From the sequence record NC_054913.1: 64,000 nt of DNA; one strand, written 5' to 3'. The notes under the pieces are model-generated. The model did not search any database and was not told where the DNA came from. It was given only the letters and a program-made list of their open reading frames with translations. The translations under genes were made by a program, and so were the position numbers. Origin of the DNA: Escherichia phage F2. Positions 4,259-54,058 of the stretch are shown here, piece after piece (positions within the stretch are counted from its first letter, which is position 1; every line of letters starts with the position of its first letter).

Positions 4259-4732
4259 ATGATTATCAATGAAAACTCTTGGCACTTTAAAATTTATGCC
4301 GCGTTCAATAATACATGGAATCGCCCTAAAACGTTGTGTGCTTATTTTTGGAAAACGTTAATCCCGGTATTATCTGTTTCAATTATTGGATTTGCGATTT
4401 TAGCAGCAGTAACAATCATTGGCCAGGAAATTTTAACTAGATTCTTTGTTTTTAGCAGTCTATGGACATTAGTTCCAGCCTCAATTGGCGTAGGCATTTT
4501 AATGGTATCAGTCATGGCTTTTATTTCTGCCGGGTTGATAATTGGTCCGTCTTGGTTGTTAGACAAATATAACGACAGAAAATATTATAAAGAAATTGAG
4601 CTCATTGCGCAAAACCAAGAACGAATTAAAAATGGACTTGAACCTATTGAACGTAAGAAATCATTAATAGGTGAATACCTTAAAGCTCGTAAAGAAAAAA
4701 TCTGTCCTACTCTTGAATATAAGGCTAAATGA
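4259..4732 (+). CDS. hypothetical membrane protein
   Basis: Two long hydrophobic segments. Confidence 0.55.
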   Translation: MIINENSWHFKIYAAFNNTWNRPKTLCAYFWKTLIPVLSVSIIGFAILAAVTIIGQEILTRFFVFSSLWTLVPASIGVGILMVSVMAFISAGLIIGPSWLLDKYNDRKYYKEIELIAQNQERIKNGLEPIERKKSLIGEYLKARKEKICPTLEYKAK

Positions 4733-5742
4733 TGAAAACAATTATGAAAGGCTACTTTGGTAGCCACCTTTATGGAACTTCTACTCCAGAATCTGATGTA
4801 GATTTTAAAGAAATCTTTGTTCCTCCTGCTCGCGATATTCTTATCGGAAATGTTAAAGAGCATATGAGTAAAAACACTAACAACACATCATCTAAAAACA
4901 CCAAAGATGATATTGACCATGAACTGTACAGTCTTAAGTATTTCTTTAAATTAGCAGCAGATGGTGAAACTGTAGCATTGGATATGCTTCACACTCCGCC
5001 TGAACTAGTGGTTAAATCTGATTTGCCTGATGTATGGAAATTTATCCAAGACAATCGTTCACGGTTTTATACAACTAACATGAAATCCTATTTAGGATAT
5101 GTCCGCAAGCAAGCTTCTAAATACGGTGTCAAGGGTTCTCGTTTGGCCGCATTACGTGATGTATTGAAAGTAGTTAATCAAATCCCTGACCAGTGGGTCG
5201 ACTATCAAGAAGGAATCCCTGATAGACTTCGTCGTACTAAGGTAGAAGATATCAAACACAGACTCCCTGAAAACGAGTTCTGTGAATGGGTATTCCATAA
5301 CCATGAGAAAACAGGCCCGCAAACGTTCTATACCGTGTTGGGTCGTAAATATCAGACAACACTTTCTCTTATTGAGCTTAAGCAGTCTTTGAATAAACTT
5401 GATGCTGAATATGGCGAACGTGCTCGTAAGGCTGAAGCGAATGAGGGCATTGACTGGAAAGCTCTAAGTCATGCTTGTCGTGGTGGACTCCAACTATTGG
5501 AAATTTACAAAACTGGTGACTTGGTTTATCCACTTCAAGACGCTCCATTTATTCTCGACGTGAAGCTGGGTAAACACCCATTTAAAACTGTTCAAGAGTT
5601 TTTGGAAGGTGTGGTCGATCAAGTAGAAGCAGCATCCATTGAAGCTTCTAAGAACGGTATGCAGCAAAAAGTAGACATGGGTTTTTGGGATGACTTCCTT
5701 GAACAAGTCTATCTCGAAAATCATAATTCTTACTATAAATAA
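4729..5742 (+). CDS. nucleotidyltransferase (Pol-beta superfamily fold)
   Basis: GS-x9-DVDF motif (GSHLYGTSTPESDVDF) at N-terminus; 337 aa. Confidence 0.65.
   Translation: MMKTIMKGYFGSHLYGTSTPESDVDFKEIFVPPARDILIGNVKEHMSKNTNNTSSKNTKDDIDHELYSLKYFFKLAADGETVALDMLHTPPELVVKSDLPDVWKFIQDNRSRFYTTNMKSYLGYVRKQASKYGVKGSRLAALRDVLKVVNQIPDQWVDYQEGIPDRLRRTKVEDIKHRLPENEFCEWVFHNHEKTGPQTFYTVLGRKYQTTLSLIELKQSLNKLDAEYGERARKAEANEGIDWKALSHACRGGLQLLEIYKTGDLVYPLQDAPFILDVKLGKHPFKTVQEFLEGVVDQVEAASIEASKNGMQQKVDMGFWDDFLEQVYLENHNSYYK
5734..5741 (+). promoter_or_regulatory. T4-type late promoter TATAAATA
   Basis: Exact TATAAATA upstream of 5774 ORF. Confidence 0.4.
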
Positions 5743-5773: not shown

Positions 5774-6055
5774 ATGAAAAAATTAGTAATTGGTTTATTC
5801 ACAGTAATGATGGCATTCTCTGTTGGTGCTACCACGGGTGCTGCTGGCGGTAGTGCAGGAGCTGGTGGTAACCAGTCTTCTGGGCCTTCTAATGGTTCGG
5901 TAAATGCATCACATTCTCAGGGTATTGAGAACATTAAATCAAGCTATATTAATAGCACGGCCGGACAAGCAACTGAAGCATGGTCAAAGGGACGAGTAGT
6001 TACTCGCTCCGTATTCTGTGATATGCCTAATTATGTTGCTAAGTGCGATAAGTAA
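5774..6055 (+). CDS. hypothetical secreted Gly/Ser-rich protein
   Basis: Signal peptide MKKLVIGLFTVMMAFSVGA followed by Gly-rich low-complexity region. Confidence 0.55.
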   Translation: MKKLVIGLFTVMMAFSVGATTGAAGGSAGAGGNQSSGPSNGSVNASHSQGIENIKSSYINSTAGQATEAWSKGRVVTRSVFCDMPNYVAKCDK

Positions 6056-6058
6056 ATG

Positions 6059-6080
6059 TGGGGACCTTCGGGTCCCTTTA
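6059..6080 (+). terminator. terminator hairpin (UUCG tetraloop)
   Basis: gggaccttcgggtccc followed by T-rich tract. Confidence 0.5.
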
Positions 6081-6107
6081 GGGGGTTAAAATATTTTTAA
6101 AAAAGTA

Positions 6108-6136
6108 GTGTACATGCTTTTAGGATATGTTATTAT
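6108..6136 (+). promoter_or_regulatory. T4-type early promoter
   Basis: gtgtac 6108-6113, tattat 6131-6136. Confidence 0.5.
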
Positions 6137-6174
6137 AGACCTATCGAAACGAAATGAGTAAATTGGAGAATAAA

Positions 6175-7155
6175 ATGTTCAACGTTCAAATCAAAAAAGG
6201 TATCTATCGTAATAACGAAATCTCTGGTTCTTATGTTGCCACAAAGACCTGGTTCCCGGCAAAGCTTAATCCTGAATGTTCCCACTTAGGTGATGGTAAA
6301 ATCTTCGTTATGATTGACGGTTCTGAACGTGGAGTATGGGTCTTCAAATCAGACATCGTAATGGAAGGAGTTGAGACATCACCAGTTGCAGTCGTTGAAA
6401 GCACTGAAGATATGAAAACTCGTATCAACAAACGCTTTAAAGTAATGAACATGATGACGAATGGCATTATCGATGGTAAAATTCGTTCACTCATTATTTC
6501 AGGTGCAGCTGGTATTGGTAAGACGTATTCTCTGGATAAAGCACTTAATAACGCTAATGATAATGGTTTCATCAAATACAAAAGCATTAATGGTAAAATC
6601 TCTGGTATCGGCCTTTACGAACAACTTTGGCTCAACCGTGATGCAGACAGCGTTCTCTTAATCGACGACGTTGACGTATTCTCAGATATGGACATCTTGA
6701 ACCTTCTTAAAGCAGCATTAGATACTGGAGATAAACGCAAAGTTTGTTGGAGCACTGCGTCATCTTATCTCGATGATAAGGGTATTGATAAAGAATTTGA
6801 GTTTGAAGGTACTATCGTTTTCATTACAAACGTTGATATCGATAAAGAGTTAGAACGCGGTTCGAAACTTGCCCCACACCTTCAAGCTTTAGTATCTCGT
6901 TCAGTGTATCTCGACCTTGGAGTACACTCTAATGAAGAGATTATGGTTCGAGTTGAAGATGTAATATTATCTACTGACATGATGCAGAAACGTGGTCTGA
7001 CGGATGCAGAAACGTATAAAGCATTGTCCTGGATGAAGGCTAACGTATCTCGTCTTCGCAATGTATCATTACGTACGGCTCTTTACGTAGCAGATTTTAT
7101 TTCAACTGATAAAGATGGTTGGGAAGAAATCTCGGAAGTTACTTTATTGAAATAA
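6175..7155 (+). CDS. P-loop NTPase (AAA-like ATPase)
   Basis: Walker A GAAGIGKT, Walker B LLIDDVD; ORF track 6154..7155, ATG 6175 has GGAG RBS. Confidence 0.65.
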   Translation: MFNVQIKKGIYRNNEISGSYVATKTWFPAKLNPECSHLGDGKIFVMIDGSERGVWVFKSDIVMEGVETSPVAVVESTEDMKTRINKRFKVMNMMTNGIIDGKIRSLIISGAAGIGKTYSLDKALNNANDNGFIKYKSINGKISGIGLYEQLWLNRDADSVLLIDDVDVFSDMDILNLLKAALDTGDKRKVCWSTASSYLDDKGIDKEFEFEGTIVFITNVDIDKELERGSKLAPHLQALVSRSVYLDLGVHSNEEIMVRVEDVILSTDMMQKRGLTDAETYKALSWMKANVSRLRNVSLRTALYVADFISTDKDGWEEISEVTLLK

Positions 7156-7293
7156 GCTTATAGGAAGTTCTGAGGTAACAAAAGCCATAAAGATGAATAA
7201 TCATATGGCTTACCTCAAAGAAGGACACCAGGAACCTACTGAGGGCATAGAAATATTTAAAAATAATGATGTACAAATCAAAGAGGATATGTT

Positions 7294-7581
7294 ATGGATT
7301 TTATGCAAAAAATTAAAGCCGCAGTAGAACTCTATGCTCATCGTATGGTTAGTTCTACAATGCAATATAGCGAGGAGGTTCGCCAGGACTCTTCCTTGAA
7401 AGGAAAAACTAAAGCCTTAATTACCTTAGATCGTTTGCAAAAGAATGCCATAGAGATGCTCCAGTACGACAAGGCTGTATATAAGAAAGAACAGGAAGAG
7501 AAACTTAAATCTGAAAAATTACAGAAAGTCCCGAAGTCTGTTTGGTTCAGTGGAAAAAATACCGAAAAAAGTTTCTTTTAG
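7294..7581 (+). CDS. hypothetical protein
   Basis: ORF with AGAGGA RBS. Confidence 0.5.
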   Translation: MDFMQKIKAAVELYAHRMVSSTMQYSEEVRQDSSLKGKTKALITLDRLQKNAIEMLQYDKAVYKKEQEEKLKSEKLQKVPKSVWFSGKNTEKSFF

Positions 7582-7583
7582 TT

Positions 7584-7612
7584 GTTTACAAGGTCTATGG
7601 TTATGTTATTAT
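7584..7612 (+). promoter_or_regulatory. T4-type early promoter
   Basis: gtttac 7584-7589, tattat 7607-7612. Confidence 0.6.
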
Positions 7613-7639
7613 AGACCTATCAACTACTGGAGGTAAAAC

Positions 7640-8188
7640 ATGAACGCTAAAGATATTTTCAACCTGGTAAATTATAACGACGGTAAATTTAAATCTGAAG
7701 CACAAAGCAAGTTCTTTAATGACATTGCTTATGGTAACGAGATTACCGTGGACGGAGGTCAGATTTTCAAATCTCGCTGGAATTGGATTGCTATCATCGA
7801 TTCAGTTGGAATTGTGGAAGTCTACAAAAACACTAACAAAAAACGTACATTATTCTGGTCTCGTGAAACTAACGAGCAGTACAAAAAGGATAAAGCATCT
7901 CGTTTATCCAAAGTAACCCAGGAAGATATCGAGTTTATCAAGAAAGATATCGAGTTTATCAAGAAAGATATCGAGATGTACGAAAATTTAATCGCTGAAG
8001 ACCAGGCAGTACTCGATAAGTTTGATGAAATTAAAGCTTCTCGTGAAATCCCTGACTTCATGAAAGAAACAGTAAACGAACGATACGCTCTCACTTCAGA
8101 ACGTATTGCAAACTATACAAAACAGAAAGCAGAACGTATTAGTACTCTTCGGAAATTTGAAGAACGTTTAAAGACGGTTCACGCATAA
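7640..8188 (+). CDS. hypothetical protein with internal tandem repeat
   Basis: ORF with GGAGG RBS; contains in-frame 21-bp tandem repeat. Confidence 0.55.
   Translation: MNAKDIFNLVNYNDGKFKSEAQSKFFNDIAYGNEITVDGGQIFKSRWNWIAIIDSVGIVEVYKNTNKKRTLFWSRETNEQYKKDKASRLSKVTQEDIEFIKKDIEFIKKDIEMYENLIAEDQAVLDKFDEIKASREIPDFMKETVNERYALTSERIANYTKQKAERISTLRKFEERLKTVHA
7925..7975 (+). repeat. 21-bp direct tandem repeat (about 2.4 copies) inside CDS
   Basis: gatatcgagtttatcaagaaa repeated, encoding DIEFIKK. Confidence 0.9.
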
Positions 8189-8190
8189 AC

Positions 8191-8215
8191 GCTTTACCCA
8201 AGGACGGGTTATAAT
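8191..8215 (+). promoter_or_regulatory. T4-type middle promoter (MotA box + -10)
   Basis: cGCTTTA 12-13 bp upstream of TATAAT 8210-8215. Confidence 0.45.
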
Positions 8216-8250
8216 GGTTTTGAGTTCCAATTCAATCTGAGGAAATAGTT

Positions 8251-9246
8251 ATGAGCATTACATCTGATGCGGTAAAACATGAAATTAACGGTTTATGTGC
8301 TTCACAGATTAAAGTGTGGTTTAAAGACCATAATGATCGCAGAGCACTTAATTATGAGCAAATTGCTATCCAAGTTCATCAATTACTGACTAGTAAATTT
8401 GATTTTCATATGCCGTCTGAAATCTATACTAACCTACCACGAGCGCTTATTAAAGCGTGTAAAGGTTACGGAAAATCAATGGCCGATGGAATCTTCAGCG
8501 CGCTGAATAAACTTAACGTTCTGTCGATGATTAACTCTAACAACATCCTGCGTAATCTAGGACGTACTGATTTGTTCGGCCGTGAACAGTGTAAAATGCC
8601 TTTGAAATGGATTGTTGCTCATCTTAACGAGAATCAAACACGTTTTATGGCCGTATCAGCACGCTTACAAATGGGCCTAGATCGTCAGATGAACTTTAAA
8701 ACTCATCCACGTTATTCAGGTTCAACAGACTTTTATAAATGTGAGCTTCAAAAGGTCGCAGGTAAAACTGTCTTAGTAGTTCGTGTAACGTTTGAAGGAC
8801 GACGTCAAGGATATTTTGACGTAATCGGCTCTGGACTTAAACATTGTGGATTTATCGACGAAGTTGATATCAAGCGAGACAGCATTGGATACCGTATTGG
8901 ATATGTTTGTACTCTTAAAGAAGAGATTTCAGGACCAGCACCAGGACTAAAAGACGTTAGATATAAAGACGAGCTCGTTGAAGAAATAAAAGAAGTTGAA
9001 TATGATATCAACCAAGAAGATGCTCTTAAAGACCTTATTGATGAACTAAACCAAGACGTTATTCCAGTTCAGAAATTTGAATCAAAACATGCTGAGCAAA
9101 TCAAATACTTTGAAGCTTTGATTAACGAACTTAATGTAACTATTCAACAGACTGACGATGAAATCTCACGATTAGCAGGCTTAAACGGTAAAAATAAAAC
9201 AGAACGAGCTAATCTTATTCAGGTAGTAAAACTTCTTAAGGAATGA
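8251..9246 (+). CDS. hypothetical protein with C-terminal coiled coil
   Basis: 331-aa ORF, GAGGAA RBS. Confidence 0.55.
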   Translation: MSITSDAVKHEINGLCASQIKVWFKDHNDRRALNYEQIAIQVHQLLTSKFDFHMPSEIYTNLPRALIKACKGYGKSMADGIFSALNKLNVLSMINSNNILRNLGRTDLFGREQCKMPLKWIVAHLNENQTRFMAVSARLQMGLDRQMNFKTHPRYSGSTDFYKCELQKVAGKTVLVVRVTFEGRRQGYFDVIGSGLKHCGFIDEVDIKRDSIGYRIGYVCTLKEEISGPAPGLKDVRYKDELVEEIKEVEYDINQEDALKDLIDELNQDVIPVQKFESKHAEQIKYFEALINELNVTIQQTDDEISRLAGLNGKNKTERANLIQVVKLLKE

Positions 9247-9275
9247 TGTACAACCAAGGATGGTTGGAGTATAAT
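9247..9275 (+). promoter_or_regulatory. T4-type early promoter (repeated cassette)
   Basis: -35-like atgtac, TATAAT 9270-9275; near-identical copy at 53471-53512. Confidence 0.5.
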
Positions 9276-9303
9276 CTTTCTATCTTAACGAGAGGAAAAT
9301 ATT

Positions 9304-10254
9304 ATGACACGTTCACATTATGTTGATTATTTTGCAGGTCTTATCGCTAACGTTCATGCCCAACGTGCTTCTGGTTCATTAGGATTTGATGTTCCACACC
9401 GAGTTGTAGTAAGTGGTATTCTTCGCGATTTTGGTACATACACAGGCCAAGAAAATCATATCTGTAAAGATACTCAGAATGCGTATTCTCATTCATTAGG
9501 GACACTGCTTCAATGGTTCAAACGTTCTCGTTTATTATCTTCTACTGTAGCTCGCGATAACATTAAAAACTTTATGAAGCCGAGCTTTATTAAATCTGTG
9601 ACATCTAAAACTGATTTAGTTGAATTTACTATTATTAACGATGTTAAAAAGACTCATTTGGCTGATTGGTTATCTACCATTCCTGAAACTAAATTTGCTG
9701 ATAAATTTGCTTGTGAATTCAATAACCAAGTGAATATGCTTTTTAAACATTCTCGTAAATTATTCACGGGCGGTGACGCCCGTACAAATAAAGTTCATGT
9801 TAAAGATTGGGTTACTGCAGTATTCAAACCAACTGGTAATGGTAACGCATCATTATCAATTGATATCCAGGTTCCTTATTACTACTCACGTAATCTCGGT
9901 ACCATGAAAGCCGAAGAAATTAAGAAGCACAATAAAACCGTTCGTTCGCTGTCTTATAAACTTCGTATGATGTTACAGACTATGGATGTTGTTGAAATGT
10001 TCAGCGAAACCGAAGATAATGGTTCAATGTTATACAGTTCTCGCATTCAAATTAAGTTGAAGAACCCTAACGAGTATAAGCCTAAGCCTATTAAAGAGCC
10101 TAAAGCAGAAAAAGTTGATAACTTAAGAGAAGAACGCGAATATCTCAAATCTCGTCTGAAAGAAGTCGAAGCCCAGATTGCAGAACAAACTAAATCGTTA
10201 AAAGCTCTGAATGCGAAAGCGGATGGTTTACGAAATGCCATTGAGGTGTTATAA
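9304..10254 (+). CDS. hypothetical protein with C-terminal coiled coil
   Basis: 316-aa ORF, GAGAGGA RBS. Confidence 0.55.
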   Translation: MTRSHYVDYFAGLIANVHAQRASGSLGFDVPHRVVVSGILRDFGTYTGQENHICKDTQNAYSHSLGTLLQWFKRSRLLSSTVARDNIKNFMKPSFIKSVTSKTDLVEFTIINDVKKTHLADWLSTIPETKFADKFACEFNNQVNMLFKHSRKLFTGGDARTNKVHVKDWVTAVFKPTGNGNASLSIDIQVPYYYSRNLGTMKAEEIKKHNKTVRSLSYKLRMMLQTMDVVEMFSETEDNGSMLYSSRIQIKLKNPNEYKPKPIKEPKAEKVDNLREEREYLKSRLKEVEAQIAEQTKSLKALNAKADGLRNAIEVL

Positions 10255-10559
10255 TGAAACTACGTCTTTTAGAGGATATTGATATGAGCACTAATCATGG
10301 CTTGGTTAAGTTTATTGACGATAGTTCAAAGATTGAATTTGTTCAGCGAGATAAAATCCACGGTGAAGAAGAGTTCGTTCCTCCGGCATGGAACGAAATA
10401 ATGAAAATGGTTGAACGACGTGAAAATGCTGCCAAATCGGCAGCAAAACATCCATGCCCGGAATGTGGAACTATCCAAGTCCAACTGGTTAACTGGACCA
10501 GTGATAACTTGAAATTGAAATGCCGTAAATGCTTCCACAAATTTGAGAGAACATTATAA
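10254..10559 (+). CDS. hypothetical zinc-ribbon protein
   Basis: CPECG...CRKC motif pair. Confidence 0.5.
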   Translation: MKLRLLEDIDMSTNHGLVKFIDDSSKIEFVQRDKIHGEEEFVPPAWNEIMKMVERRENAAKSAAKHPCPECGTIQVQLVNWTSDNLKLKCRKCFHKFERTL

Positions 10560-10972
10560 TGAGATATAGCCTTCGTTGTTTTATCGCAGCTTTAGTTTTT
10601 GCTATTATTCCATTCATTTGGAACAGCCAGAATACTTACATGGAAACTAAAGTAATTCCTGTGGAGGTAGTGGAATTAATCTCAGGCCAATCTACAGGAA
10701 AATATTCTAATTTAGAATTTATTGCAGTTTATAAAGATGAACAAGGCCGTGTTTTTGACAGGCATGTATCACCGTCGTTTTATACGCTTCTGAATAAAGG
10801 TGATACGATAGCTATAGAAATTCGTGAGATGGATATCAAACAAACTACTAAAGATAACTTGATTTGGTTCTTTGGTACAGTGTTGTTGGTTTCTATCTGT
10901 ATCACAGGTTTTATTACATGTATTGTATTTGGCGTTGCATATTTAATCGATGAAAGGAAAAATAATGTTTAA
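10559..10972 (+). CDS. hypothetical membrane protein
   Basis: N- and C-terminal hydrophobic segments. Confidence 0.5.
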   Translation: MRYSLRCFIAALVFAIIPFIWNSQNTYMETKVIPVEVVELISGQSTGKYSNLEFIAVYKDEQGRVFDRHVSPSFYTLLNKGDTIAIEIREMDIKQTTKDNLIWFFGTVLLVSICITGFITCIVFGVAYLIDERKNNV

Positions 10973-11228
10973 AGTGTACGGGTATGACTCTACTATTCAT
11001 AAATGCATTTATTGTGATAATGCGAAACGATTGCTGACTGTTAAGAAACAGCCATTCGAATTCATTAATGTTATGCCAGAAAAAGGTGTGTTCGATGATG
11101 AGAAAATTGCTGAGCTTCTGGTTAAGCTTGGACGTGAATCACAAGTCGGATTGACTATGCCTCAAGTGTTTGCTCCTGATGGAACTTCGATCGGTGGCTT
11201 TGACCAACTACGAGAATATTTTAAATGA
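10965..11228 (+). CDS. nrdC: thioredoxin/glutaredoxin NrdC
   Basis: MFKVYGYDSTIHKCIYCDNAK closely matches T4 NrdC; CxxC active site. Confidence 0.9.
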   Translation: MFKVYGYDSTIHKCIYCDNAKRLLTVKKQPFEFINVMPEKGVFDDEKIAELLVKLGRESQVGLTMPQVFAPDGTSIGGFDQLREYFK

Positions 11229-53470: not shown

Positions 53471-53500
53471 GTTTACAACCAAGGACGGTTGGAGTATAAT
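53471..53500 (+). promoter_or_regulatory. T4-type early promoter (repeated cassette)
   Basis: gtttac 53471-53476, tataat 53495-53500. Confidence 0.55.
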
Positions 53501-54028: not shown

Positions 54029-54058
54029 TTGTACATCCAAGGATGGATGGAGTATAAT
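54029..54058 (+). promoter_or_regulatory. T4-type early promoter
   Basis: ttgtac -35-like, tataat 54053-54058. Confidence 0.45.

What the first reader, a model, noticed from the sequence alone, without database searches (positions are those of the whole stretch)
6175..10254. Early-promoter-driven P-loop ATPase followed by two large coiled-coil proteins
The 6175-7155 ORF has Walker A and B motifs after a roughly 110-aa N-terminal domain. Downstream, each behind its own early or middle promoter, are a repeat-containing 182-aa protein and two roughly 320-aa proteins with C-terminal coiled coils. The functions are unknown and the block is large for an accessory region.
Basis: inference. Interest (0 to 1): 0.45.

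Follow-up and report, generated by a model that had tools for sequence, protein, structure and literature searches.

The report
T4 nrdC.10–nrdC.3 accessory gene cassettes
This stretch is the Mosigvirus (T4-like phage) copy of the uncharacterised, non-essential T4 genes nrdC.10, .9, .8, .6 and .3: a widely conserved AAA+ ATPase followed by unrelated fast-evolving cassettes, one of which is a distant paralogue of the T4 protein that blocks the bacterial Dsr1 defence.

Summary
The window comes from a Mosigvirus, 97-98% identical to sequenced coliphages. The block is the T4 nrdC.10-nrdC.3 segment just upstream of nrdC.

- 6175-7155 is NrdC.10, a complete AAA+ ATPase.
- 7640-8188 is NrdC.8-like, with a private 21-bp in-frame duplication.
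- 8251-9246 is NrdC.6-like.
- 9304-10254 is NrdC.3-like.

All T4 orthologues are uncharacterised and non-essential, so the refutation condition (orthology to characterised housekeeping genes) is not met.

The genes are not one system. The ATPase occurs in more than 575 viral contigs. In distant T4-like phages it sits between uvsY/uvsX and uvsW. The other genes are confined to T-even-like phages.

The 316-aa protein is homologous to the family of NrdC.5, the T4 anti-Dsr1 protein (profile-profile probability 92%, E 6e-7). The 331-aa protein is probably a more distant member. The NrdC.5-like cassette present in most relatives has been lost here, at a promoter sequence that flanks that cassette on both sides in relatives.

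Functions are inferred, not shown: anti-defence for the coiled-coil proteins and DNA transactions for the ATPase. Interest is modest, because these are known orphan genes that now have a sharper, testable hypothesis.

The parts
6061..6079 (+). GC-rich hairpin (GGGACC-UUCG-GGUCCC) followed by TTT. It is terminator-like and lies directly upstream of the early promoter, the arrangement described for PeSLs.
   Evidence: Sequence read. The terminator scan lists a neighbouring, offset stem at 6071-6087, not this hairpin. PeSL definition from PMC4122927.
6104..6145 (+). Early-type promoter element (-35 TGTACA 6109-6114, TG-extended -10 TATTAT 6131-6136) upstream of the ATPase gene.
   Evidence: T4 has a GTTTAC...TACTAT promoter at the same position upstream of nrdC.10.
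6175..7155 (+). NrdC.10 orthologue, a 326-aa AAA+ ATPase. N-terminal beta domain 1-64, AAA+ core 77-250, helical lid 253-324. Walker A at nt 6502-6525, Walker B at 6652-6669, sensor-1 N219, Arg finger R242, sensor-2 R300.
7294..7581 (+).
   Evidence: Pfam PF23833, E 8e-23. 35% identical to T4 NrdC.9.
7580..7621 (+). Early promoter element (-35 TTTACA 7585-7590, -10 TATTAT 7607-7612), 81% identical to the element at 6104-6145.
   Evidence: Same architecture upstream of T4 nrdC.8. The GGAG Shine-Dalgarno resembles the RegB-cleaved site of T4 nrdC.8 (PMC1702504).
7640..8188 (+). NrdC.8 orthologue (182 aa; Pfam PF26901 Phage_T4_Y05D), function unknown. Beta-rich N-terminal half and helical C-terminal half by composition; no structure was predicted.
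   Evidence: 80% identical to T4 NrdC.8. PHROG 2274. Pfam name.
7925..7966 (+). Exact 21-bp tandem duplication that adds one heptad (DIEFIKK) to the NrdC.8-like protein. It is private to this genome.
   Evidence: No exact match in IMG/VR. All 12 best GenBank phage hits span 150 nt for the 171-nt query.
8190..8215 (+). Middle-type promoter: MotA-box-like GCTTTA (8191-8196), spacer hairpin ACCC-AAGGAC-GGGT (8196-8209), -10 TATAAT (8210-8215).
   Evidence: The same element precedes T4 nrdC.7.
8251..9246 (+). NrdC.6 orthologue (331 aa; Pfam PF26899 Phage_T4_Y05B). Fast-evolving and of very narrow distribution. Probable distant member of the NrdC.3/4/5 superfamily.
   Evidence: 29% identical to T4 NrdC.6. 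Only 6 clusters among 1.84 billion representatives. hhalign against the NrdC.5 family scores 25.5, against 13.4 +/- 1.9 for column-shuffled targets. Shared C-terminal motif.
9247..9275 (+). Promoter (TGTACA, 17-nt spacer, TATAAT) with spacer hairpin CAACCA-AGGA-TGGTTG. It is also the junction at which the NrdC.5-like cassette is missing.
9304..10254 (+). NrdC.3 orthologue (316 aa; Pfam PF26897 Phage_T4_Y04OP). Paralogue of NrdC.4 and homologue of the anti-Dsr1 NrdC.5 family. C-terminal coiled coil at about 267-316.
   Evidence: 56% identical to T4 NrdC.3. jackhmmer links NrdC.3 and NrdC.4. hhalign against the NrdC.5 family: probability 92%, E 5.6e-7, score 55 against 12.6 +/- 2.0 for shuffled targets. 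AF2 helix 275-315.

Best explanation
The block is the Mosigvirus version of the T4 nrdC.10-nrdC.3 part of the nrdC-mobD hyperplastic region. It is a row of separately promoted, dispensable early/middle genes, not a single machine.

(1) NrdC.10 is a catalytically complete, presumably ring-forming AAA+ ATPase with a small N-terminal beta domain. It is phage-specific but very widely conserved. I infer that it remodels or loads a protein-DNA complex in phage replication or recombination. In distant T4-like phages its gene lies inside a gp32-UvsX-UvsY-[NrdC.10]-UvsW module.

(2) The 316-aa protein, and probably the 331-aa protein, belong to a fast-evolving paralogue superfamily (NrdC.3, .4, .5, .6 and syntenic 340-355-aa proteins of other T4-like phages). 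Members have a variable globular body and a C-terminal coiled coil that ends in a conserved +LxxA[ILV]xxLK motif. One member, T4 NrdC.5, neutralises the SIR2-type defence protein Dsr1. I infer that the two proteins here are oligomeric, stoichiometric binders or inhibitors of other host defence (or host-takeover) targets. On this view the coil provides oligomerisation and the variable body provides specificity.

(3) Cassettes are gained and lost by recombination between near-identical promoter elements that flank them. That is how this phage lost its NrdC.5-like gene.

Shown: orthology, motifs, homology to the NrdC.5 family, distribution, and the deletion junction. Inferred: all biochemical functions.
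For: Identity and synteny with T4 nrdC.x.

ATPase:
- Catalytic residues are invariant.
- There are 885 protein homologues and at least 575 viral contigs.
- It is absent from isolate bacterial genomes; the 20 hits are all contigs of metagenome-assembled genomes (MAGs).
- A UvsW-like helicase lies within 3 kb downstream in 36 of 62 informative loci.
- UvsY-like, UvsX and gp32 genes lie upstream.
- One homologue carries an N-terminal XRE-type helix-turn-helix (HTH) domain.

Coiled-coil proteins:
- hhalign of the NrdC.3/4 family against the NrdC.5 family gives probability 92% and E 5.6e-7, collinear over the full length. The best-aligned 121 columns lie in the globular part, not the coil.
- In the shuffle control the real score is 55 against 12.6 +/- 2.0.
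- The NrdC.6 family scores above every shuffle against the NrdC.5 family and against the L008/L009 355-aa proteins.
- The first non-self hits of each family HMM are the syntenic proteins.
- The extreme C-terminal motif is shared.
- NrdC.5 counters Dsr1 (PMC9391042).
- Neighbouring genes nrdC.1 and 49.2 are anti-Septu and anti-OLD.

Other points:
- All T4 nrdC.x genes are non-essential.
- Identity to T4 is very uneven across the region: 95% for NrdC.11 and 29% for NrdC.6.
- The deletion junction lies at a promoter sequence that is identical over about 30 bp on both sides of the cassette in relatives.
- The copy number of the family varies from 2 to 4 among close relatives.
Against: No experiment exists for NrdC.10, .8, .6 or .3.

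In the comparison read from the HIDEN-SEQ supplement, the values seen for the T4 orthologues showed no significant conditional fitness effect.

The AF2 model of the 316-aa protein is poor (pLDDT 58.8), so a shared fold with NrdC.5 is not shown structurally.

The link between the NrdC.6 family and the NrdC.3/4 family is not significant (E 0.07; within the shuffle range).

Paralogy with an anti-defence protein does not prove anti-defence function.

The NrdC.10-UvsW adjacency could be inherited synteny within one broad clade (ATPases 45-100% identical to one another). It is absent in T-even phages.

Confidence: 0.5

Rival explanations
1. The ATPase and the downstream coiled-coil proteins form one functional system, for example an ATPase motor with coiled-coil adaptors that is co-inherited and co-regulated.
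For: The genes are adjacent, on the same strand and of a similar early/middle promoter class. The order NrdC.10-.9-.8-.6 is kept in T4, the JS98-like phage and Mosigvirus.
Against: The distributions are discordant. NrdC.10 is present in all 83 loci examined, whereas NrdC.8, NrdC.6 and NrdC.3 are each present in only 6. The NrdC.6 family has only 6 clusters among 1.84 billion representatives. Each gene has its own promoter. The number of coiled-coil cassettes varies from 2 to 4 among close relatives while the ATPase is constant.
Confidence: 0.07
2. NrdC.10 is itself a counter-defence or host-takeover remodeller, for example an unfoldase that dismantles a host complex, rather than a replication/recombination factor.
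For: It lies in an anti-defence-rich region in T-even phages. It is non-essential in T4. The best structural matches are MoxR-type chaperone ATPases. In the closer T4-like loci (NrdC.10 at least 61% identical, L001-L010) it is adjacent to the RlaP nucleotidyltransferase NrdC.11, which is predicted to take part in RNA repair after host anticodon nucleases.
Against: It is far more conserved (31-83% identity across more than 575 contigs, including a roseophage siphovirus) than known anti-defence genes usually are. In distant phages its neighbours are recombination genes, not accessory genes. The RlaP adjacency is lost outside the closer T4-like phages.
Confidence: 0.25
3. The coiled-coil proteins are not anti-defence factors. 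On this view they are scaffolding, regulatory or nucleoid-associated proteins used in the phage's own early programme, and NrdC.5's anti-Dsr1 effect is a special case.
For: No direct data exist for NrdC.3.4 or .6. No conditional phenotype appeared in the HIDEN-SEQ comparison that was read. Coiled coils are common in structural and regulatory proteins. There are no hits to PADLOC or to solved structures.
Against: Divergence is rapid (29-56% identity to T4, next to neighbours at 90-95%). The family varies in copy number and cassettes are lost between near-identical phages. Taxonomic range is very narrow. The only characterised relative is an anti-defence protein.
Confidence: 0.2

Closest known systems
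T4 NrdC.10 (Y05F, PHROG 1250), an uncharacterised AAA+ ATPase of T4-like phages
   Same: 77.5% identity over the full length, the same position between nrdC.11 and nrdC.9, and the same promoter position.
   Different: Nothing of substance differs; this is the orthologue. Function is unknown in T4 too. A 2006 survey noted only a weak AAA match (PMC1524935).
T4 NrdC.5 (Y05A, DUF7235), which counters the SIR2-type defence protein Dsr1 (Srikant, Guegler & Laub 2022)
   Same: The 316-aa protein's family aligns collinearly with the NrdC.5 family (hhalign probability 92%). Both have a size of about 310-340 aa, a C-terminal coiled coil ending in +LxxA[ILV]xxLK, and early expression from the same tandem array.
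   Different: Identity is only about 15-17%, and the Pfam families differ (PF26897 versus PF23882). The true NrdC.5-like gene (319 aa in relatives) is deleted in this window. Anti-Dsr1 activity cannot be assumed.
T4 NrdC.3/NrdC.4 (Y04O/Y04P, PF26897) and NrdC.6 (Y05B, PF26899), NrdC.8 (Y05D, PF26901), NrdC.9 (DUF7203)
   Same: They are orthologues by sequence and position.
   Different: This phage has no NrdC.4 copy. The NrdC.6-like protein is 56 aa longer than the T4 reference, whose C-terminus looks truncated. The NrdC.8-like protein carries a private 7-aa duplication.
MoxR/bEBP/MCM and initiator/clamp-loader AAA+ ATPases
   Same: The AAA+ fold with lid; Walker A and B, sensor 1, Arg finger and sensor 2; an SRS motif (SRC in distant homologues) before beta-5; and a beta-hairpin-like insert before sensor 1.
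PeSL / PmSL mobile promoter-stem-loop cassettes of T4-type phages (Arbiol 2010; Comeau 2014)
   Same: A stem-loop plus early promoter lies upstream of the ATPase gene. Near-identical promoter copies flank a cassette that is present in some close relatives and absent in others. The location is a hyperplastic region.
   Different: In two of the promoters here the hairpin sits inside the promoter spacer rather than upstream of the -35 element. I did not find that arrangement in the passages of the two PeSL papers that I read.

Membership tests
AAA+ ATPase superfamily (for 6175-7155) | Walker A GxxxxGK[ST] and Walker B hhhhD[DE] | tested here: met
   GAAGIGKT (residues 110-117) and VLLIDD (160-165). 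K116, D164 and D165 are invariant in 32 sequences.
AAA+ ATPase superfamily (for 6175-7155) | Sensor-1 polar residue, arginine finger, and a C-terminal helical lid carrying a sensor-2 arginine | tested here: met
AAA+ ATPase superfamily (for 6175-7155) | ATP hydrolysis and oligomeric ring or spiral assembly | not testable with these tools
   Needs purified protein.
MoxR family | Match to the MoxR Pfam models (AAA_3/AAA_5) and a VWA-domain partner gene | tested here: not met
Clamp-loader (RFC/gp44) family | Full-length match to clamp-loader profiles, including the collar domain | tested here: not met
   PHROG 168 matches only residues 93-183, at E 2.9e-4. The PDB profile search gives only Cdc6 at E 0.06. 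The SRC-like motif is present.
T4 NrdC.10 orthologous group | Full-length sequence similarity and conserved position | tested here: met
   77.5% identity over 320 aa. PHROG 1250, E 1e-161, covering residues 1-326. Flanked by NrdC.11 and NrdC.9 as in T4.
NrdC.5 / DUF7235 anti-Dsr1 family (for 9304-10254) | Sequence membership in DUF7235 | tested here: not met
   The protein belongs to PF26897, not PF23882. jackhmmer does not merge the two families. Only profile-profile comparison links them (probability 92%), so the relation is at superfamily level.
NrdC.5 / DUF7235 anti-Dsr1 family (for 9304-10254) | Neutralises Dsr1 when expressed in trans | not testable with these tools
   This is known only for T4 NrdC.5 (PMC9391042).
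NrdC.3/4/5/6 superfamily (for 8251-9246) | Significant profile similarity to the other member families | tested here: inconclusive
   Against the NrdC.5 family E is 0.014, with score 25.5 against a shuffle maximum of 17.8. Against the L008/L009 355-aa proteins E is 0.007. Against the NrdC.3/4 family E is 0.07, within the shuffle range. The C-terminal motif is shared.
Coiled-coil C-terminus | Proline-free helix of at least 4 heptads with hydrophobic a/d positions | tested here: met
   For the 316-aa protein: heptad score 0.66 over residues 267-316 and an AF2 helix at 275-315. For the 331-aa protein the result is only partial: an a/d pattern at about 280-308 by eye, below threshold.
PeSL promoter-stem-loop cassettes | Stem-loop adjacent to a T4-type early promoter (TTTACW, 17-nt spacer, TAYWAT), repeated in the genome and associated with indels between close relatives | tested here: met
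   Hairpin at 6061-6076 plus promoter at 6109-6136. The repeat is significantly over-represented. The indel of the 319-aa gene lies at the repeated promoter. Consensus taken from PMC4122927.

The most novel reading that the evidence does not exclude
NrdC.3, NrdC.4, NrdC.5, NrdC.6 and the syntenic 340-355-aa proteins of other T4-like phages form one previously unrecognised superfamily of tandemly arrayed counter-defence proteins. Each would have a shared C-terminal coiled-coil oligomerisation module and a rapidly diversifying target-binding body, and each paralogue would disarm a different host immune protein. The array would be reshuffled through hairpin-containing promoter repeats. Under this reading the two proteins in this window are new defence inhibitors. 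This phage's lack of the NrdC.5-like cassette then predicts sensitivity to the corresponding defence, Dsr1 if the Mosigvirus NrdC.5-like protein shares T4 NrdC.5's target.
Probability: 0.35. Interest if true: 0.6.

Novelty: already known. Interest (0 to 1): 0.33.

Why it matters
About half of T4's genes still lack a function, and the nrdC.x run is one of the largest orphan blocks. This analysis adds no new genes. It does turn 'unknown' into specific experiments:

- Test NrdC.3, NrdC.4 and NrdC.6 as inhibitors of defence systems, because they are related to the anti-Dsr1 protein NrdC.5.
- Test NrdC.10 with UvsW, UvsX and UvsY.
- Use natural cassette loss, as in this phage, as a host-range marker.

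It also flags widespread mis-annotation of these genes as 'thioredoxin'. That error has already led a paper to treat nrdC.8 as a nucleotide reductase.

Tried and rejected
- Pfam, NCBIfam, PADLOC and PDB sequence searches gave nothing above threshold for the 182-, 331- and 316-aa proteins. The only PDB matches were coiled-coil look-alikes (prefoldin, troponin T, RSV F).
- AF2 on the 316-aa protein failed in the middle domain (pLDDT 58.8). The Foldseek hits to other T4-like 320-370-aa proteins (E 4e-5 to 3e-4) are therefore treated only as weak support.
- A full HMMER scan with the NrdC.6-like profile found only 6 clusters and no link to NrdC.3/4/5.
- A hydrophobic-periodicity test for coiled coils did not discriminate.
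- The generic promoter scan is at chance level, so I relied on repeat enrichment and conservation in T4 instead.
- I tested whether NrdC.10 is functionally linked to the neighbouring RlaP nucleotidyltransferase NrdC.11. The adjacency holds only in the closer T4-like loci, so I rejected it as a strong link.
- I looked for cellular homologues of NrdC.10. Only MAG contigs that look like phage contamination were found.
- There are no tRNA genes and no Rfam matches in the window.

Full report
WHAT THE WINDOW IS

The 5.6-kb stretch 5700-11300 matches 666 phage records. The best are Mosigvirus coliphages (EP02SG, HY126, JS09, S143_2) at 97-98% identity. The annotated regions of S143_2, AV110 and T4 and blastp against the T4 proteins give the following map.

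| Window coordinates | T4 orthologue | Identity | Note |
|---|---|---|---|
| 4729-5742 | NrdC.11 | 95% | RlaP nucleotidyltransferase |
| 6175-7155 | NrdC.10 | 77.5% | AAA+ ATPase |
| 7294-7581 | NrdC.9 | 35% | DUF7203 |
| 7640-8188 | NrdC.8 | 80% | |
| 8251-9246 | NrdC.6 | 29% | |
| 9304-10254 | NrdC.3 | 56% | also weakly similar to NrdC.4 |
| 10254-10559 | NrdC.2 | 50% | |
| 10559-10972 | NrdC.7-like | 41% | membrane protein |
| 10950-11228 | NrdC | 90% | |

CHECK OF THE OBSERVATION

All the ORFs exist. For the ATPase, 6175 is the better start. It has a GGAG Shine-Dalgarno 7 nt upstream, whereas 6154 has none. The 100%-identical database cluster is 326 aa long.

Walker A (residues 110-117) and Walker B (160-165) are present. 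They are invariant in 32 homologues that are 52-83% identical to the query.

The 182-aa protein contains an exact 21-bp tandem duplication at 7925-7966, which adds one heptad, DIEFIKK. All relatives are 175 aa long. The duplicated 42-mer has no exact match in IMG/VR. All 12 best GenBank phage hits lack it.

The 316-aa protein has a heptad-patterned C-terminus at 267-316. AlphaFold models it as one long helix at 275-315. The 331-aa protein is less clear. It has an amphipathic heptad-like stretch at about 280-308, a Gly-rich break and a short terminal helix, and it did not pass my crude scores.

The generic sigma-70 scan is at chance level (27 found against 26.1 expected).
- A 42-nt element is repeated at 6104-6145 and 7580-7621 with 81% identity.
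- Its -10 core, TGTTATTATAGACC, occurs 9 times in the window against 0.7 expected, 8 of them on the + strand.
- T4 has promoter-like sequences of the same architecture at the orthologous positions upstream of nrdC.10, nrdC.8, nrdC.7, nrdC.4 and nrdC.3.
- The consensus matches the T4/PST PeSL promoter, TTTACW-N17-TAYWAT (PMC4122927).
- A GGGACC-UUCG-GGUCCC hairpin followed by TTT precedes the ATPase promoter. This stem-loop-plus-promoter arrangement is the one described for PeSLs.
- The Shine-Dalgarno sequences of the ATPase and NrdC.8-like genes contain GGAG. The equivalent T4 nrdC.8 site is moderately cleaved by RegB (PMC1702504). This is consistent with early expression.

THE ATPASE

The AF2 model is confident (pLDDT 89). 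It shows:
- a five-stranded beta domain at residues 1-64;
- a disordered linker;
- an AAA+ core at 77-250, with a small beta-hairpin-like insert before the sensor-1 strand;
- a helical lid at 253-324.

K116, D164/D165, N219 (sensor 1), R242 (Arg finger, in an SRS motif that reads SRC in distant homologues) and R300 (sensor 2) are invariant. I therefore expect an active oligomeric ATPase.

Sequence identity in these matches is 9-18%. No Pfam, NCBIfam or PADLOC family reaches significance. The PDB profile search gives only Cdc6, at E 0.06. The protein is an AAA+ ATPase but not a member of any named family.

Its distribution is strikingly wide:
- 885 proteins with E of 1e-3 or better, including T4-like phages of Serratia, Yersinia, Acinetobacter, Aeromonas and Vibrio at 52-83% identity;
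- at least 575 viral contigs, down to 31% identity;
- structural relatives in BFVD that include a Roseobacter siphovirus protein;
- in 185,579 species genomes, only 20 hits, all on contigs of metagenome-assembled genomes (MAGs) that are most simply phage contamination.

Gene context was read in the 62 loci that hold at least 3 kb downstream of the ATPase gene. Thirty-six of them have a UvsW-like helicase within 3 kb on the same strand, and in 18 of those the gap is under 500 bp. UvsY-like (21 loci), UvsX (17) and gp32 (10) genes lie upstream. One homologue carries an N-terminal XRE-type helix-turn-helix (HTH) domain.

This context is the basis for my inference that the ATPase has a role in DNA replication or recombination. 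It may instead be inherited synteny. The ATPases in those 36 loci are 45-100% identical to one another.

In T4 the gene is non-essential.

THE COILED-COIL PROTEINS

By plain sequence search there are three families:
- NrdC.3 + NrdC.4 + the 316-aa protein;
- NrdC.5 + the 319-aa protein of Mosigvirus relatives + a 348-aa protein;
- NrdC.6 + the 331-aa protein.

Newer Pfam entries name them separately: PF26897 Y04OP, PF23882 DUF7235 and PF26899 Y05B. All are narrow in distribution. There are 33 clusters for the 316-aa protein. For the 331-aa protein there are 4 by word search and 6 among 1.84 billion representatives by full HMMER.

Profile-profile comparison links NrdC.3/4 to NrdC.5 with probability 92% and E 5.6e-7, collinear over the full length. 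The strongest 121 columns lie in the globular part rather than the coil. In a control with column-shuffled targets, the real score is 55.1 against 12.6 +/- 2.0, with a maximum of 17.5.

Weaker links extend the set to syntenic proteins of other T4-like phages:
- NrdC.5 family against a 355/353-aa pair: 52%, E 1.5e-4;
- NrdC.3/4 family against a 343-aa protein of L010, whose NrdC.10 is 61% identical to the query: 66%, E 5e-5.

The NrdC.6 family scores above every shuffle against the NrdC.5 family (25.5 against a maximum of 17.8) and against the 355-aa pair (27.4 against 19.5). It does not do so against NrdC.3/4. The aligned region is always the same central motif pair. All families except the apparently truncated T4 reference NrdC.6 end in +LxxA[ILV]xxLK.

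I rate the 316-aa protein as a superfamily relative of NrdC.5 with high confidence. I rate the 331-aa protein as one with about 70% confidence.

The AF2 model of the 316-aa protein is good only for the N-terminal helices and the C-terminal helix. The structural test therefore remains open. Its Foldseek hits to adjacent 318- and 348-aa proteins (consecutive UniProt accessions E5EYP0 and E5EYP1) and a 370-aa protein of Serratia phage PS2 count only as weak support.

WHY ANTI-DEFENCE IS THE LEADING READING

- T4 nrdC.5, expressed alone, restores plating of a deletion phage on cells carrying Dsr1 (PMC9391042).
- nrdC.1 inhibits Septu.
- gp49.2 inhibits OLD.
- Pin, a Lon inhibitor, lies nearby.

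The coiled-coil genes evolve much faster than their neighbours: 29-56% identity to T4 against 90-95%. Their number varies: four in T4, three in the JS98-like phage and in most Mosigvirus relatives, and two here and in AV110.

All four contigs that carry the identical 331-aa protein have a DUF7235 gene (319 aa in three, 310 aa in one) between it and the 316-aa gene. In this window the gene is missing. The junction is an element identical over about 30 bp, TACAACCAAGGATGGTTGGAGTATAAT, that flanks the cassette on both sides in relatives. This points to loss by recombination between promoter repeats, as described for PeSLs (PMC2839356, PMC4122927).

None of this shows what the two proteins here do. 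In the HIDEN-SEQ comparison I read, the values seen for the T4 orthologues showed no significant effect.

NOT ONE SYSTEM

The ATPase is found in all 83 loci examined. NrdC.8, NrdC.6 and NrdC.3 homologues are each found in only 6. Each gene has its own promoter. I therefore reject the idea of an ATPase-plus-adaptor machine.

COMPARISON WITH WHAT IS KNOWN, AND NOVELTY

Every gene is a known, named but uncharacterised T4-family ORF, with 97-100%-identical copies in many sequenced phages. The feature itself is already known.

As far as the library searches went, the following appear not to have been stated before:
- the homology of NrdC.3/NrdC.4 with the anti-Dsr1 protein NrdC.5;
- the common C-terminal module;
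- the recombination-module context of NrdC.10 in distant phages;
- the hairpin-in-spacer promoter subclass.

These are hypotheses of moderate interest to people working on phage defence, not surprises.

VERDICT

The feature is ordinary for a T4-type hyperplastic region. Interest is 0.33. The most novel reading that the evidence does not exclude is a diversifying array of counter-defence paralogues, with probability about 0.35.

Noticed in passing
window 9247-9303 (compare L084 6061-7137): The 319-aa NrdC.5-like (DUF7235) gene lies between the 331-aa and 316-aa genes in most Mosigvirus relatives but is absent here and in AV110. The junction is an element, identical over about 30 bp, that flanks the cassette on both sides in relatives. 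Only 1 of the 25 best GenBank hits (AV110) is collinear with the window.
   Followed up: yes
window 8196-8209, 9251-9266, 53476-53491, 54034-54049 (+ strand): A promoter subclass has a 4-6-bp hairpin with loop (A)AGGA(C) inside the spacer between the -35/MotA-box element and TATAAT. There are 4 copies on the + strand and none on the - strand, against 0.18 expected. Across all fetched loci there are 31 on the gene strand against 1 on the opposite strand. Stems differ by compensatory changes (ACCC/GGGT, CAACCA/TGGTTG, CATCCA/TGGATG, CCACA/TGTGG; T4 also has TACCA/TGGTA and AGCCA/TGGCT). Its function is unknown.
   Followed up: partly
window 7925-7966: A 21-bp exact in-frame tandem duplication in the NrdC.8-like gene adds exactly one heptad. 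It was not found in any other phage record examined or in IMG/VR. It could be a strain-specific slippage event or an assembly artefact.
   Followed up: yes
window 6128, 7604, 20184, 42601, 50350, 52799, 55040, 60391 (+ strand) and 49509 (- strand): The early-promoter -10 core TGTTATTATAGACC (up to 2 mismatches) occurs 9 times against 0.7 expected by chance. It marks a family of near-identical early promoters spread through the window.
   Followed up: partly
window 5774-6055: A 93-aa Gly/Ser-rich protein with an N-terminal signal-peptide-like segment (weak YbgS-like Pfam hit, PHROG 2243) ends just before the UUCG hairpin. It was found in the Mosigvirus loci (L001, L002, L004) but had no match among the T4 nrdC.1-nrdC.11/mobD proteins compared.
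   Followed up: no
GenBank records H2, H3, H14, H16, H17, H19, H22, H24; L002 annotation: Many deposited genomes annotate the whole nrdC.x run, including the ATPase and the coiled-coil genes, as 'thioredoxin', evidently carried over from the gene-name prefix. A 2026 paper (PMC13275509) accordingly treats T4 nrdC.8 as a nucleotide reductase. None of these proteins has a thioredoxin or reductase domain.
   Followed up: partly
L003 10067-10894 (T4 nrdC.6); P0161, P0162: The T4 reference NrdC.6 (275 aa) ends in ...FNNMMMKFSDYLD. It lacks the C-terminal coil and the +LxxA..LLK motif present in its close homologues (P0158; 295 aa in L007). The sequence that would encode the missing tail lies just downstream in T4. 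This suggests a frameshift in the reference, or a real truncation.
   Followed up: partly
window 10559-10972, compared with T4 nrdC.7 (L003 10902-11303): The NrdC.7-like membrane-protein gene sits between the NrdC.2-like gene and nrdC here. In T4 it lies between nrdC.8 and nrdC.6. The promoter that precedes nrdC.7 in T4 precedes the 331-aa gene here. This is an example of cassette relocation within the region.
   Followed up: no
L078 9638-10831: A distant NrdC.10 homologue on a 296-kb viral contig carries an N-terminal XRE-type helix-turn-helix extension in place of the beta domain. Many other distant homologues lack the N-terminal domain altogether (matches start at residues 62-83).
   Followed up: no
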